This document shows, piece by piece, positions 3,182-5,927 of a stretch of DNA of 7,566 bases. Position numbers and translations under genes: made by a program. The stretch is from a virus (Duplodnaviria; Heunggongvirae; Uroviricota; Caudoviricetes). The stretch is from the IMG/VR virus record IMGVR_UViG_2681813004_000023. The stretch is one strand, 5' to 3'. Under the pieces are notes generated by a model. The model had not been told where the DNA came from, made no database searches, and worked only from the letters and a program-made list of their open reading frames with translations. Each line of letters begins with the position of its first letter. Position 1 is the stretch's first letter.

Positions 3182-3937
3182 ATGAGTAAAGTCTTTATTT
3201 GCGCCGCCATTCCGGACGAACAGGCAATAAAGGAAGAAGGTGCAGTCGCTGTAGCCACTGCCATTGAAGCCGGTGATGAATGTCGCGCCCGCGCAAAATT
3301 TCACTGGCAATTCCTGGAACATTATCCGGCTGCTCAGGACTGCGCTTATAAATTTATTGTCTGCGAGGATAAACCTGGCATACCCCGCCCTGCCCTCGAT
3401 TCATGGGATGCTGAATATATGCAGGAAAACCGCTGGGATGAGGATTCTGCTTCTTTTGTCCCGGTTGAGACTGAATCCGATCCGATGAACGTCACTTTTG
3501 ACAAGCTGGCCCCTGAAGTACAGAACGCTGTCATGGTTAAGTTCGACACATGTGAAAACATCACCGTTGATATGGTGATTAGCGCACAGGAATTGTTGCA
3601 GGAAGACATGGCAACATTCGACGGACATATCGTTGAAGCGTTGATGAAAATGCCAGAAGTTAACGCCATGTATCCGGAGCTTAAGCTGCATGCCATCGGG
3701 TGGGTTAAGCATAAATGTAAGCCTGGTGCCAAATGGCCCGAAATTCAGGCAGAGATGCGCATCTGGAAAAAACGTCGCGAAGGTGAACGCAAGGAAACCG
3801 GAAAATACACGTCTGTCCGCGCCAGAGTCCACCGACAGCACACTGAAAACTCAGCAGAAAAAATCCCCCCTGTCACTGCAGTCATTCGTCGCGAATATAA
3901 GCAGAGTGGAAGCGTTGATGAAAATGCCAGAAGTTAA
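3182..3937 (+). CDS. N-terminal portion of the exonuclease gene (251 aa), ending 10 codons into the second repeat copy; probably a frameshift-split fragment of one ancestral gene
   Basis: ORF track 3182..3937. Its last ~90 residues (VEALMKMPEVNAMYPELKLHAIGWVKHKCKPGAKWPEIQAEMRIWKKRREGERKETGKYTSV...) are repeated in-frame at the start of the downstream ORF; after copy 1 the frame runs out of register into copy 2 and stops at 3935-3937. Confidence 0.55.
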   Translation: MSKVFICAAIPDEQAIKEEGAVAVATAIEAGDECRARAKFHWQFLEHYPAAQDCAYKFIVCEDKPGIPRPALDSWDAEYMQENRWDEDSASFVPVETESDPMNVTFDKLAPEVQNAVMVKFDTCENITVDMVISAQELLQEDMATFDGHIVEALMKMPEVNAMYPELKLHAIGWVKHKCKPGAKWPEIQAEMRIWKKRREGERKETGKYTSVRARVHRQHTENSAEKIPPVTAVIRREYKQSGSVDENARS

Positions 3938-4190
3938 CGCCATGTATCCGGAGCTTAAGCTGCATGCCATCGGGTGGGTTAAGCATAAATGTAAGCCTGG
4001 TGCCAAATGGCCCGAAATTCAGGCAGAGATGCGCATCTGGAAAAAACGTCGCGAAGGTGAACGCAAGGAAACCGGAAAATACACGTCTGTTGTTGATCTC
4101 GCCCGCGCCAGAGTCAATCAACAGCACACTGAAAATTCAACAGGAAAAATCAGCCTGGTCATTGCTGCCATTCATCGCGAATACAAGCAG
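3632..4190 (+). repeat. Tandem direct duplication inside the exonuclease gene: copy 1 about 3632-3904, copy 2 about 3906-4190, period 274 bp
   Basis: 182 bp are identical between 3635-3816 and 3909-4090. The tails are about 80% identical, by substitutions only and in frame (3817-3904 vs 4103-4190), with an extra 12 nt (4091-4102) in copy 2. A period of 274 is not a multiple of 3, so copy 2 is in the +1 frame relative to copy 1. Confidence 0.9.
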
Positions 4191-5927
4191 ACATGGAAAA
4201 CACTGGATGACGAACTGGCCTACGCTCTCTGGCCTGGTGATGTGGATGCCGGAAACATTGACGGCAGCATCCATCGCTGGGCAAAAAATGAAGTTATCGA
4301 CAACGACCGCGAAGACTGGAAGCGTATCTCGGCATCAATGCGCAAACAGCCTGATGCCCTTCGCTACGACCGCCAGACTATTTTTGGCCTTGTCCGTGAA
4401 CGTCCGATCGACATTCACAAAGACCCTGTGGCACTGAACAAATACATTACTGAATACCTGACTACAAAGGGCGTATTTGAAGATGAAGGAACAAATCAGA
4501 GCGCAACTGATACTCTCTCGTCGCCAGTACCAGAAACTGATGCAGTGGAAACGGCAATTCCGGACAACGAAAAAACCGAATGCAAAGTGGAAGTCGAACC
4601 ATCTGTAGAGCGTGAGGGGCCGTTCTACTTCCTCTTCACCGACAAGGATGGCGAAAAATACGGTCGCGCAAACAAACTTTCTGGTCTGGAAAAAGCACTA
4701 GCCTTGGGAGCTACGGAAATCACAAAAGAGGAATACTTCGCACGTAAAAACGGCACGTACTCAGGTTCACAACAAAATACTGGTGCATCTGACACGACCG
4801 CACAACCAGAGCCGGTAAAAGTTACCGCTGACGAAGTAAACAAAATTATGCAGGCAGCCAATATCAGCCAGCCTGACGCCGATGAACTGCTTGCAGTATC
4901 ACGTGGTGAATTTGTTGAAGGGATTAGCGACCCGAATGATCCGAAATGGGTTAAGGGGATCCAGACCCGCGATTCTGTGAACAAGAACCAGCAAGAAACG
5001 GAACAGAACGACCAGAAAGCGGAACAAAACAGCCCAAATACGCAACAAAACGAGCCAGAAACGAAACAACCTGAACCAGTAGTGCAACAGGAACCGGAAA
5101 AGATCTGCACCGCCTGCGGTCAGAGCGGTGGCGGCAACTGCCCTGATTGTGGTGCGGTGATGGGTGACGCAACATACCAGGAAATATTCGATGGAGAGAA
5201 TCAGCCTGAAGTTCAGGAAAATGATCCGGAGGAAATGGAAGGCACTGCGCATCAGCACAAGGAGAACACTGGCGGCAATCAGCATCATGCCAGCGATAGT
5301 GAAACTGGCGAGGCGTCAGATCCCTTAATTAAGGCGAACGGTCATCATAATCTCACATCCACCAGCAGAGCGGGGATTCATCTGATGATCGACCTTGAAA
5401 CCATGGGAAAAAATCCCGATGCCCCGATTATCTCAATAGGTGCAATATTTTTCGATCCGCAAACCGGAGATATGGGACCGGAATTTAGTAAGACTATCGA
5501 TCTGGAAACTGCTGGCGGAGTCATTGATCGGGACACCATTAAATGGTGGCTTAAGCAATCACGCGAAGCGCAATCTGCCATTATGACCGATGAAATCCCG
5601 TTAGATGATGCACTGTTACAATTGCGGGAATTTATCGACGAAAACTCCGGTGAATTTTTTGTTCAGGTCTGGGGAAATGGAGCCAACTTCGACAACACGA
5701 TTTTGCGCCGTTCATACGAACGGCAGGGGATCCCCTGCCCGTGGCGTTACTACAACGATCGCGATGTACGCACAATCGTTGAGCTGGGGAAAGCCATAGA
5801 CTTCGATGCCAGAACGGCTATTCCATTCGAAGGTGAGCGCCATAATGCACTTGATGACGCCCGTTACCAGGCAAAATACGTTTCAGCTATCTGGCAAAAA
5901 CTGATCCCGAGTCAGGCTGATTCTTAA
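3918..5927 (+). CDS. Exonuclease with RecE-like central linker and Cys4 zinc ribbon plus C-terminal DnaQ-like DEDDh 3'-5' exonuclease domain (track ORF 3690..5927; in-frame conserved start at ATG 3918 or 3924)
   Basis: C-terminal motifs seen directly: Exo I MIDLETMG (D/E at about 5391-5402), Exo II WGNGANFDNTIL, Exo III HNALDDARY (about 5841-5856). Central region ...VSRGEFVEGISDPNDPKWVKGIQTRD... and CTACGQSGGGNCPDCGAVMGDATYQE (C-x2-C-x8-C-x2-C) matches my memory of the middle region of Rac RecE (exonuclease VIII). The first ~76 residues of track ORF 3690..5927 are an out-of-frame reading of repeat copy 1. Confidence 0.7.
   Translation: MKMPEVNAMYPELKLHAIGWVKHKCKPGAKWPEIQAEMRIWKKRREGERKETGKYTSVVDLARARVNQQHTENSTGKISLVIAAIHREYKQTWKTLDDELAYALWPGDVDAGNIDGSIHRWAKNEVIDNDREDWKRISASMRKQPDALRYDRQTIFGLVRERPIDIHKDPVALNKYITEYLTTKGVFEDEGTNQSATDTLSSPVPETDAVETAIPDNEKTECKVEVEPSVEREGPFYFLFTDKDGEKYGRANKLSGLEKALALGATEITKEEYFARKNGTYSGSQQNTGASDTTAQPEPVKVTADEVNKIMQAANISQPDADELLAVSRGEFVEGISDPNDPKWVKGIQTRDSVNKNQQETEQNDQKAEQNSPNTQQNEPETKQPEPVVQQEPEKICTACGQSGGGNCPDCGAVMGDATYQEIFDGENQPEVQENDPEEMEGTAHQHKENTGGNQHHASDSETGEASDPLIKANGHHNLTSTSRAGIHLMIDLETMGKNPDAPIISIGAIFFDPQTGDMGPEFSKTIDLETAGGVIDRDTIKWWLKQSREAQSAIMTDEIPLDDALLQLREFIDENSGEFFVQVWGNGANFDNTILRRSYERQGIPCPWRYYNDRDVRTIVELGKAIDFDARTAIPFEGERHNALDDARYQAKYVSAIWQKLIPSQADS

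What the first reader, a model, noticed from the sequence alone, without database searches (positions are those of the whole stretch)
3182..5927. RecE-like architecture carrying a DEDDh (DnaQ/RNase T-like) 3'-5' exonuclease domain, with no annealase gene nearby
The central acidic, Q/E-rich linker and Cys4 zinc ribbon resemble what I recall of Rac RecE. RecE's C-terminus is a PD-(D/E)XK 5'-3' exonuclease that works with RecT, encoded immediately downstream. Here the C-terminus instead has a complete DEDDh motif set (DLET, FDNT, H-x4-D), which predicts the opposite polarity, and the gene is followed directly by xis and int with no RecT/Redbeta/Erf-like gene in the window. This suggests a domain-swapped nuclease whose role may not be classical recombination; DNA-end processing, anti-defence or an exclusion function are open possibilities.
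Basis: partly seen in the sequence, partly recalled or inferred. Interest (0 to 1): 0.7.

Follow-up and report, generated by a model that had tools for sequence, protein, structure and literature searches.

The report
Split prophage 3'-5' exonuclease gene (YdfE family)
This is a broken copy of a very common, already catalogued E. coli prophage gene for a DexA-like 3'-5' exonuclease that shares its middle part with RecE and never comes with an annealing partner; its biological role is still untested.

Summary
The C-terminal DEDDh domain is real (Pfam PF16473, E=3.5e-67; closest solved structure T4 DexA). The RecE relationship is real: residues 262-625 match RecE 278-591, including the Cys4 ribbon, and the match stops just before RecE's nuclease domain. 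No annealase gene lies in the window or in two complete relatives.

Two corrections. First, 3182-5927 is not one ORF here. An out-of-register 274-bp tandem duplication (3632-3905 / 3906-4191) shifts the frame and splits the gene into 251-aa and 669-aa fragments. Second, the architecture is not rare. The intact 823-aa gene is PHROG 2082, and the K-12 Qin pseudogene ydfE is its remnant. At least 80% of the gene is present in 3,532 of 5,426 complete E. coli genomes and in phage mEp460, annotated 'exonuclease' or '3'-5' exonuclease'.

Relatives show that N-terminal scaffolds and C-terminal nucleases have been shuffled. In the loci examined, RecT follows the PD-(D/E)XK versions and xis/int follows the DEDDh versions.

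The most likely function is an early-left-operon 3'-5' DNA exonuclease, inferred only. Low novelty, modest interest.

The parts
3182..3937 (+). 5' fragment ORF (251 aa): canonical residues 1-~241 of the exonuclease (YdfE_N and part of YdfE_C), then about 10 out-of-frame residues and a stop
   Evidence: phrog_2082 positions 1-246 of 823, E=1.3e-176; the intact homologue's first 256 aa are 98% identical to K-12 YdfE; PF27430, PF27432.
3632..3905 (+). Duplication copy 1 (274 bp). Its first 185 nt are 99% identical to copy 2. Its last 89 nt carry a different allele (O157 PV15-279 type) and lack 12 nt (TGTTGATCTCGC).
3906..4191 (+). Duplication copy 2 (286 bp), in register with the rest of the canonical gene. 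The junction reads AAGCAGA|GTGGAAGCG.
   Evidence: window 3906-5927 matches homologue nt 451-2472 at 98.8% with no gaps..
3918..5927 (+). 3' fragment ORF (669 aa from ATG 3918, canonical residues 155-823). The mechanical ORF starts at 3690 in a spurious frame of copy 1.
   Evidence: phrog_2082 positions 151-822; gene called at these coordinates in the source record.
4239..5342 (+). Central region homologous to Rac RecE residues 278-591, which lie in RecE's N-terminal part of unknown function. The match is detectable at DNA level over 4880-5329 and ends just before the nuclease domain.
   Evidence: PMC11611040 for RecE domain limits.
4608..4760 (+). Small confidently predicted beta-hairpin/helix domain (canonical aa 385-435), conserved across scaffold relatives
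4979..5069 (+). Imperfect 21-bp tandem repeat (4.3 copies) encoding the Q/E/N-rich, predicted disordered linker
5106..5153 (+). Cys4 ribbon CTACGQSGGGNCPDCG, shared with RecE (CNACGQTGGDNCPDCG)
   Evidence: AF2 confidence here is low and zinc binding is untested.
5379..5894 (+). DEDDh (DexA/Rv2179c-like) 3'-5' exonuclease domain. Motifs: DLET 5391-5402, FDNT 5688-5699, HNALDD 5841-5858.
6000..6251 (+). Excisionase (DUF1233) immediately downstream. No annealase gene intervenes.
6286..7566 (+). Tyrosine integrase. The prophage sits at the Qin site next to ynfP/rspB.

Best explanation
Shown: The locus is the exonuclease gene of a Qin/mEp460-type lambdoid prophage. It is the last gene of the early-left operon (ydfA-ydfB-ydfC-DicF-dicB-ydfD-exo) before xis-int. 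The normal product is an 823-aa mosaic protein with these parts:
- a YdfE-type N-terminal alpha/beta-plus-helical scaffold (aa 1-345);
- a small beta-hairpin domain (aa 385-435);
- a long acidic, Q-rich disordered linker with a Cys4 ribbon, shared with Rac RecE;
- a C-terminal DEDDh domain whose closest characterised relative is the phage T4 3'-5' DNA exonuclease DexA.

In this window the gene is split by a 274-bp out-of-register duplication that joins two allele types. At best an N-terminally truncated 669-aa product could be made.

Inferred: The intact enzyme removes nucleotides from DNA 3' ends by two-metal DEDDh catalysis. It is expressed after the S24-type repressor is inactivated. It acts in phage DNA-end processing or DNA metabolism without a dedicated annealing protein, and the scaffold tethers whichever nuclease module it carries.
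For: Identity and abundance:
- phrog_2082 matches at 1,466 bits.
- The gene is 97-98% identical to annotated 'exonuclease' / '3'-5' exonuclease' genes. At least 80% of it is present in 3,532 of 5,426 complete E. coli genomes.
- Phage mEp460_ev081 carries it at 96.8% protein identity in the same gene order.
- K-12 YdfE equals the first 256 aa.

Domain:
- PF16473 at E=3.5e-67, with all five DEDDh residues present.
- The AF2 model has pLDDT above 90 over aa 640-820.

RecE mosaic:
- The protein and DNA matches to RecE end at RecE aa 591.

Shuffling of modules:
- P0141 has the YdfE N-terminus with a PD-(D/E)XK domain and is followed by RecT.
- P0122, P0123 and P0133 have the RecE N-terminus with DEDDh and are followed by xis/int.

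Recombination-slot precedent:
- In P22-like phage g341c a stand-alone homologue (56% identical) lies in the order erf-ssb-exo-abc2.

Duplication.
Against: - No experiment on this family was found in the searchable literature. Substrate, polarity and role are inferred from homologues that share only about 22% identity with the catalytic domain.
- A 3'-5' exonuclease does not produce the 3' overhangs used in classical annealing pathways, so a recombination role is not obvious.
- The N-terminal 345 residues have no detectable relative of known function.
- The duplication is seen in one draft contig only. Its junction is absent from all complete E. coli genomes, so an assembly error cannot be excluded.
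Confidence: 0.75

Rival explanations
1. HREX-like defence or exclusion nuclease. Like the E. coli DexA homologue EcD, the domain would selectively digest 5hmC-modified DNA of T-even phages and protect the lysogen or the induced cell.
For: EcD is a DexA-family 3'-5' exonuclease that degrades T4 DNA and protects E. coli (PMC12153337). The window domain belongs to the same structural family.
Against: The gene lies inside the repressed early-left operon rather than being a lysogen-expressed moron. In the HMMER alignment the equivalent of DexA D90, which is Ala in EcD, is Asp here, and the equivalent of W152 is Tyr. EcD is a stand-alone protein that starts MIDTET, and none of the 269 retrieved family proteins has that start. 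PADLOC gives only a weak generic DEDDh hit.
Confidence: 0.08
2. Exoribonuclease. The domain acts on RNA 3' ends like M. tuberculosis Rv2179c, RNase T or Orn, for example trimming phage or host RNAs or degrading short oligoribonucleotides.
For: The Pfam family is named for the exoribonuclease Rv2179c. RNase T, Orn and REXO2 are close structural neighbours. NCBI names many copies '3'-5' exoribonuclease'.
Against: The best sequence and structure match is the DNase DexA, ahead of the RNases. Homologues sit among DNA recombination genes. The scaffold is shared with a DNA exonuclease, RecE.
Confidence: 0.1
3. Anti-defence nuclease. It would destroy host immune nucleic acids with free 3' ends, such as retron msDNA or signalling oligonucleotides, during lytic growth.
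For: RecE, which shares the central region, degrades retron msDNA and triggers retron-Sen2 (bioRxiv 10.1101/2020.06.22.160242). The gene is in an early operon. Another DEDDh enzyme (Cap18) is linked to CBASS.
Against: There is no direct evidence. RecE's msDNA degradation uses a nuclease domain that is absent here.
Confidence: 0.07
4. The duplication is an assembly artefact and the gene is intact in the source strain. Two paralogous prophage alleles would have been joined out of register by the assembler.
For: The exact 251-aa product is on record in one draft contig only, and the window begins at that contig's end inside a repeated prophage. E. coli genomes carry a median of 2 and up to 10 places matching this gene. 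The two copies carry different allele types. The junction is absent from 5,426 complete genomes.
Against: A collapsed-repeat artefact would not normally create a novel junction with 4-5 nt of microhomology plus a private 12-nt deletion. These features look like genuine illegitimate recombination.
Confidence: 0.3

Closest known systems
PHROG 2082 'exonuclease' (E. coli prophage 823-aa exonuclease, e.g. phage mEp460_ev081 VUF53467.1 'Exodeoxyribonuclease encoded by cryptic prophage CP-933P'; NCBI '3'-5' exonuclease')
   Same: Same gene: 97-98% nucleotide identity, the same dicB-ydfD-exo-xis-int order and the same three-part Pfam architecture.
   Different: The window copy carries a 274-bp duplication with a frameshift and a 12-nt deletion, so it is split into two ORFs.
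K-12 Qin prophage pseudogene ydfE (b1577)
   Same: Same locus next to rspB/ynfP. The first 256 aa are 98% identical.
   Different: K-12 ydfE is truncated by IS2 and lacks the linker and DEDDh domain. The window copy keeps all parts but is frameshifted.
Rac RecE (exonuclease VIII)
   Same: Same operon slot. The central region with the acidic linker and Cys4 ribbon is homologous, about 38% identical over the aligned 370 columns and 76% at nucleotide level over the last 450 nt.
   Different: RecE's N-terminal 277 aa (PF06630) and its C-terminal PD-(D/E)XK 5'-3' nuclease domain are absent. No recT follows. The NCBIfam RecE equivalog scores 279 bits against a cutoff of 1,269.
Phage T4 DexA (PDB 8KEL/8KEN), 3'-5' DNA exonuclease
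   Different: DexA is a 227-aa stand-alone enzyme with extra loops, only 22-23% identical, and has no scaffold.
E. coli EcD / HREX (HAK9828821.1)
   Same: DexA-family DEDDh exonuclease encoded in E. coli.
   Different: EcD is a stand-alone protein with a different sequence. The EcD marker pattern (Ala at DexA D90, Trp at W152) is not matched: the window has Asp and Tyr.
Stand-alone DEDDh exonucleases of temperate phages (g341c gp29, F1055_0028, SKA5)
   Same: 56-60% identical to the C-terminal domain and located near the end of the early-left operon.
   Different: They have no N-terminal scaffold. In g341c the gene sits between ssb and abc2, next to erf.

Membership tests
DEDDh (DnaQ-like) 3'-5' exonucleases / Pfam PF16473 Rv2179c-like | Exo I motif D-x-E | tested here: met
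   DLET at 5391-5402. It aligns with DexA D7/E9.
DEDDh (DnaQ-like) 3'-5' exonucleases / Pfam PF16473 Rv2179c-like | Exo II Asp and Exo III H-x4-D | tested here: met
   FDNT at 5688-5699 aligns with DexA D119. HNALDD at 5841-5858 is conserved in the consensus of 91 aligned relatives.
DEDDh (DnaQ-like) 3'-5' exonucleases / Pfam PF16473 Rv2179c-like | Profile score above the curated cutoff, and the RNase H-like DEDD fold | tested here: met
DEDDh (DnaQ-like) 3'-5' exonucleases / Pfam PF16473 Rv2179c-like | 3'-5' exonuclease activity | not testable with these tools
   Needs a biochemical polarity assay.
RecE / exonuclease VIII | C-terminal PD-(D/E)XK 5'-3' nuclease domain (RecE 564/606-866; PF12684-like) | tested here: not met
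   No such Pfam hit. Homology to RecE ends at RecE aa 591.
RecE / exonuclease VIII | Whole-protein match to the NCBIfam equivalog NF007259 | tested here: not met
   279 bits against a cutoff of 1,269.
RecE / exonuclease VIII | recT (annealase) gene immediately downstream | tested here: not met
   xis follows at 6000. No annealase is annotated in mEp460 or the MB06102 prophage.
RecE / exonuclease VIII | Central acidic region with a Cys4 ribbon | tested here: met
   BLASTP E=5e-60, with the ribbon conserved.
YdfE family (PHROG 2082; Pfam PF27430 YdfE_N, PF27432 YdfE_C) | Profile matches over the N-terminal 260 aa and over the full 823-position PHROG | tested here: met
   The match is 98% identical to K-12 YdfE.
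HREX / EcD-type 5hmC-specific defence exonuclease | Loss of the tetramer residue (DexA D90 becomes Ala) with 5hmC-recognition residues W152 and D169 retained | tested here: not met
   In the sequence alignment the D90 equivalent is Asp and the W152 equivalent is Tyr. D169 lies outside the aligned stretch. This rests on alignment only.

The most novel reading that the evidence does not exclude
The YdfE/RecE scaffold is a targeting platform that works with any nuclease. The very common annealase-less DEDDh version would then serve a function other than classical recombination. Candidates are an anti-defence activity against host immune nucleic acids with free 3' ends, or exclusion of competing phages in the manner of EcD/HREX. 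That would explain why about two-thirds of E. coli genomes keep it.
Probability: 0.15. Interest if true: 0.6.

Novelty: already known. Interest (0 to 1): 0.27.

Why it matters
As a sequence feature it is ordinary: a disrupted copy of one of the commonest prophage genes in E. coli, already covered by PHROG, Pfam and NCBI names.

What remains open is function. No experiment on this family was found, although it is abundant. The survey here shows that lambdoid prophages shuffle at least two N-terminal scaffolds with several C-terminal nucleases. In the loci examined, the annealase gene travels with the PD-(D/E)XK module and not with the scaffold.

That makes two things testable: what RecE's N-terminal region of unknown function does, and what an orphan 3'-5' exonuclease contributes to a temperate phage.

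Tried and rejected
- AF2 on the full-length protein with 32 near-identical sequences gave pLDDT 35 and was unusable. A second job with a diverse alignment worked. Both fold searches were then dominated by the DEDDh domain, so the N-terminal fold stays unassigned.
- A profile of the N-terminal 225 aa against PDB sequences found nothing. phmmer of two scaffold relatives against the PDB also found nothing.
- Pfam and NCBIfam gave no hit for ORF1.
- PADLOC gave only a weak generic Cas-associated DEDDh hit at E=1.7e-5. I do not take it as evidence for a defence system.
- The duplication junction and copy-1 tail were searched in 5,426 complete E. coli genomes. No contiguous match was found.
- No retrieved family protein starts with EcD's MIDTET, the start encoded by the EcD cloning primer, so identity with EcD was rejected.
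- Literature searches for ydfE, Rv2179c, PF16473 and ydfD/ydfE found no functional study. One search was wasted because 'RecE' matched 'receptor'.
- The promoter and terminator scan showed nothing above the shuffled background.
- A true RecE with recT elsewhere was rejected on the membership tests.
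Full report
**What the window is.** The exact 251-aa product of 3182-3937 is on record in one place only: the first 14 kb of contig AOTC01000307.1 of draft assembly GCA_001447405.1, next to ynfP/rspB/rspA. That is the attachment site of the K-12 cryptic prophage Qin.

The gene order in the window is as follows:
- a ydaT-like fragment;
- a P22-Cro-like gene at 357-572 on the minus strand;
- an HTH + peptidase-S24 repressor at 624-1338;
- ydfA (DUF1391), ydfB and ydfC;
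- the DicF sRNA at 2487-2538 (Rfam, 76.7 bits);
- dicB at 2713-2901;
- ydfD/DUF1482 at 2898-3086;
- the gene in question;
- an excisionase at 6000-6251;
- a tyrosine integrase at 6286-7566.

This is the Qin/mEp460-type early-left operon running from the repressor gene to int.

**Checking the observation.** The C-terminal part is a DEDDh exonuclease domain.
- Pfam PF16473 (Rv2179c-like) matches residues encoded by 5379-5894 at E=3.5e-67, 226 bits against a cutoff of 27.
- They align with the published catalytic residues of T4 DexA.

The RecE resemblance is also real.
- BLASTP of the intact homologue against K-12 RecE gives E=5e-60 over residues 262-625 against RecE 278-591.
- The match is strongest over the last ~135 residues, including the ribbon (CTACGQSGGGNCPDCG against CNACGQTGGDNCPDCG).
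- It is visible at DNA level: window 4880-5329 matches recE nt 1365-1772 at 76%.
- It stops at RecE residue 591, just before the nuclease domain. A 2023 review places that domain at 564-866 and calls the N-terminal part 'of unknown function' (PMC11611040).

The claim of a single gene at 3182-5927 fails.
- ORF1 ends at 3937, and the rest of the gene is in the +1 frame.
- A direct repeat with 274-bp spacing explains this. Positions 3632-3816 and 3906-4090 are 99% identical. Positions 3817-3905 and 4103-4191 are 83% identical with a 12-nt length difference.
- Against an intact homologue, window 3906-5927 aligns to nt 451-2472 at 98.8% without gaps. Window 3182-3911 aligns to nt 1-743.
- The canonical gene is therefore 2,472 bp and 823 aa. 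The window repeats canonical nt 451-736.

The tail of copy 1 matches the allele of O157:H7 PV15-279 except for a private 12-nt deletion. The tail of copy 2 resembles the MB06102-type allele. The junction AAGCAGA|GTGGAAGCG has only 4-5 nt of microhomology. This looks like an out-of-register illegitimate join between two paralogous prophage alleles.

No complete E. coli genome carries the junction, and it is seen in only one draft contig. I give an assembly artefact about 0.3.

Either way, as the sequence stands the gene is split into a 251-aa fragment and a 669-aa fragment (ATG 3918). The second fragment retains everything from canonical residue 155 onward.

**What it is.**
- PHROG 2082 is an 823-position 'exonuclease' family. 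It matches ORF1 over positions 1-246 and ORF2 over positions 151-822.
- megablast finds the gene in 4,788 of 5,426 complete E. coli genomes. At least 80% of it is present in 3,532 of them. There is a median of two copies per genome and up to ten. It is annotated 'exonuclease', '3'-5' exonuclease' or '3'-5' exoribonuclease domain-containing protein'.
- The large protein database holds thousands of clusters with the precomputed architecture PF27430 (YdfE_N) + PF27432 (YdfE_C) + PF16473.
- The K-12 pseudogene ydfE, truncated by IS2, is the first 256 residues at 98% identity.
- Phage mEp460_ev081 encodes the protein at 96.8% identity in the same order, labelled 'Exodeoxyribonuclease encoded by cryptic prophage CP-933P'.

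So this is the standard, catalogued exonuclease of this prophage type.

**Structure.**
- AF2 with a shallow alignment failed, at pLDDT 35.
- With a diverse 91-sequence alignment it reached a mean pLDDT of 75.6.
- Confident domains were 1-220 (alpha/beta then helical), 245-345 (helical), 385-435 (beta-hairpin plus helices) and 640-820.
- Predicted disorder covered 347-383, 438-458 and 500-636, which includes the acidic linker and the ribbon.
- Foldseek against the PDB puts T4 DexA first (E=1.7e-9), then RNase T, Orn and REXO2.
- phmmer against PDB sequences finds only DexA, at E=6e-8.
- The N-terminal scaffold has no detectable relative of known function, by Pfam, by a profile against the PDB or by the fold searches.

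**The annealase question.**
- Between the repressor gene and 3182 the longest + strand ORF is 97 aa (DicB), and xis follows the gene directly.
- In 2,562 complete genomes the DEDDh coding end and this xis are contiguous.
- In mEp460, no feature in the ~39 kb examined is annotated as an annealase, and ten ORFs scanned with Pfam (mostly unannotated or vaguely named) gave no RecT, Erf or other annealase family. Only RusA is present.
- The complete sister prophage at the same site in strain MB06102 likewise has no annotated annealase.

**A wider pattern.** An exhaustive HMMER search found 11,778 relatives. Among the large ones the modules are shuffled.

| Protein(s) | N-terminal scaffold | C-terminal module | Next gene |
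|---|---|---|---|
| P0141 | YdfE type | PD-(D/E)XK (DUF3799) | recT, overlapping |
| P0122, P0123, P0133 | RecE type (PF06630) | DEDDh | xis/int |
| P0151, P0156, P0222 | YdfE type | third type (phrog_2489/7838) | Sipho_Gp157 protein |
| P0129 | YdfE type | fourth type (phrog_26058) | xis-like gene, then int |

With Rac itself (recE-recT), the annealase gene accompanies the PD-(D/E)XK module in 2 of 2 cases. It accompanies the DEDDh module in 0 of 8 loci examined. The sample is small but consistent.

**How it probably works.** Shown: the architecture, the intact catalytic motifs, and the operon position behind an S24-type repressor. The repressor type implies induction by RecA-stimulated cleavage; that step is inferred from the family.

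Inferred: two-metal 3'-5' hydrolysis of DNA ends. The basis is as follows.
- The nearest characterised relatives are T4 DexA and E. coli EcD, both 3'-5' DNA exonucleases. [quoted passage not shown]
- In P22-like phage g341c a 56%-identical stand-alone homologue lies in the order erf-ssb-exo-abc2. Other stand-alone homologues lie near the end of the early-left operon, upstream of int.

I put about 0.9 on the identity and architecture, about 0.7 on 3'-5' DNase activity, and about 0.4 on a DNA-end-processing or recombination-related role.

**Rivals.**
- An EcD/HREX-like defence role is disfavoured by the repressed-operon position and by the marker residues: Asp at the DexA D90 position, where EcD has Ala, and Tyr at the W152 position.
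- An RNase role is possible because of the Pfam family name and RNase T/Orn similarity, but DexA is the closer match.
- An anti-defence role has only the RecE-retron analogy behind it.
- No functional study of the family was found.

**Verdict.** The feature is a frameshifted copy of an already known, very common prophage exonuclease gene. Novelty is low. The remaining interest lies in the uncharacterised function of the family and in the shuffling of scaffold and nuclease modules documented here.

Noticed in passing
window 2487-2538 (+): A full-length DicF sRNA (Rfam RF00039, 76.7 bits against a gathering score of 48) lies between ydfC and dicB, as in Qin.
   Followed up: partly
window 357-1338: The immunity region differs from K-12 Qin. 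A P22-Cro-like gene (357-572, minus strand) faces an HTH + peptidase-S24 (LexA/cI-like, self-cleaving type) repressor (624-1338) instead of DicA. This prophage type should therefore be SOS-inducible.
   Followed up: partly
window 3812-3830: Copy 1 of the duplication has a private in-frame 12-nt deletion (TGTTGATCTCGC, removing VDLA). It was not seen in any complete E. coli genome allele.
   Followed up: yes
window 4979-5069: An imperfect 21-bp tandem repeat (4.3 copies, 74% matches) encodes the Q/E/N-rich linker. The RecE alignment has a 14-residue gap in this stretch, so this part of the protein varies in length.
   Followed up: partly
window 2548-2566 and 2677-2695: A 19-nt inverted repeat (95% complementary, arms 110 nt apart) sits just 3' of DicF and reaches toward the dicB start. 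Its function is unknown. Window 2533-2697 is also 80% identical to the kilS-kilR intergenic region of Rac.
   Followed up: no
L013 7223-7717; L020 6367-6927; L022 6358-6921: Scaffold relatives with a third, unassigned C-terminal 'exonuclease' module (phrog_2489/7838, no Pfam hit) are each followed by an overlapping Sipho_Gp157 (PF05565) gene. This may be another nuclease-partner pair.
   Followed up: partly
L004 10695-12044; L017 9478-13110: Sister phages carry large cargo genes in the replication/nin region. mEp460 has a 449-aa ORF with no Pfam hit. The MB06102 prophage has a 1,210-aa YobI-family P-loop NTPase. Both are possible defence morons.
   Followed up: no
window 1 (contig start): The window starts 2 nt inside the end of a 227-kb draft contig, within the prophage. 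The rest of this prophage is not assembled contiguously, so an annealase search in the source genome itself was not possible.
   Followed up: partly
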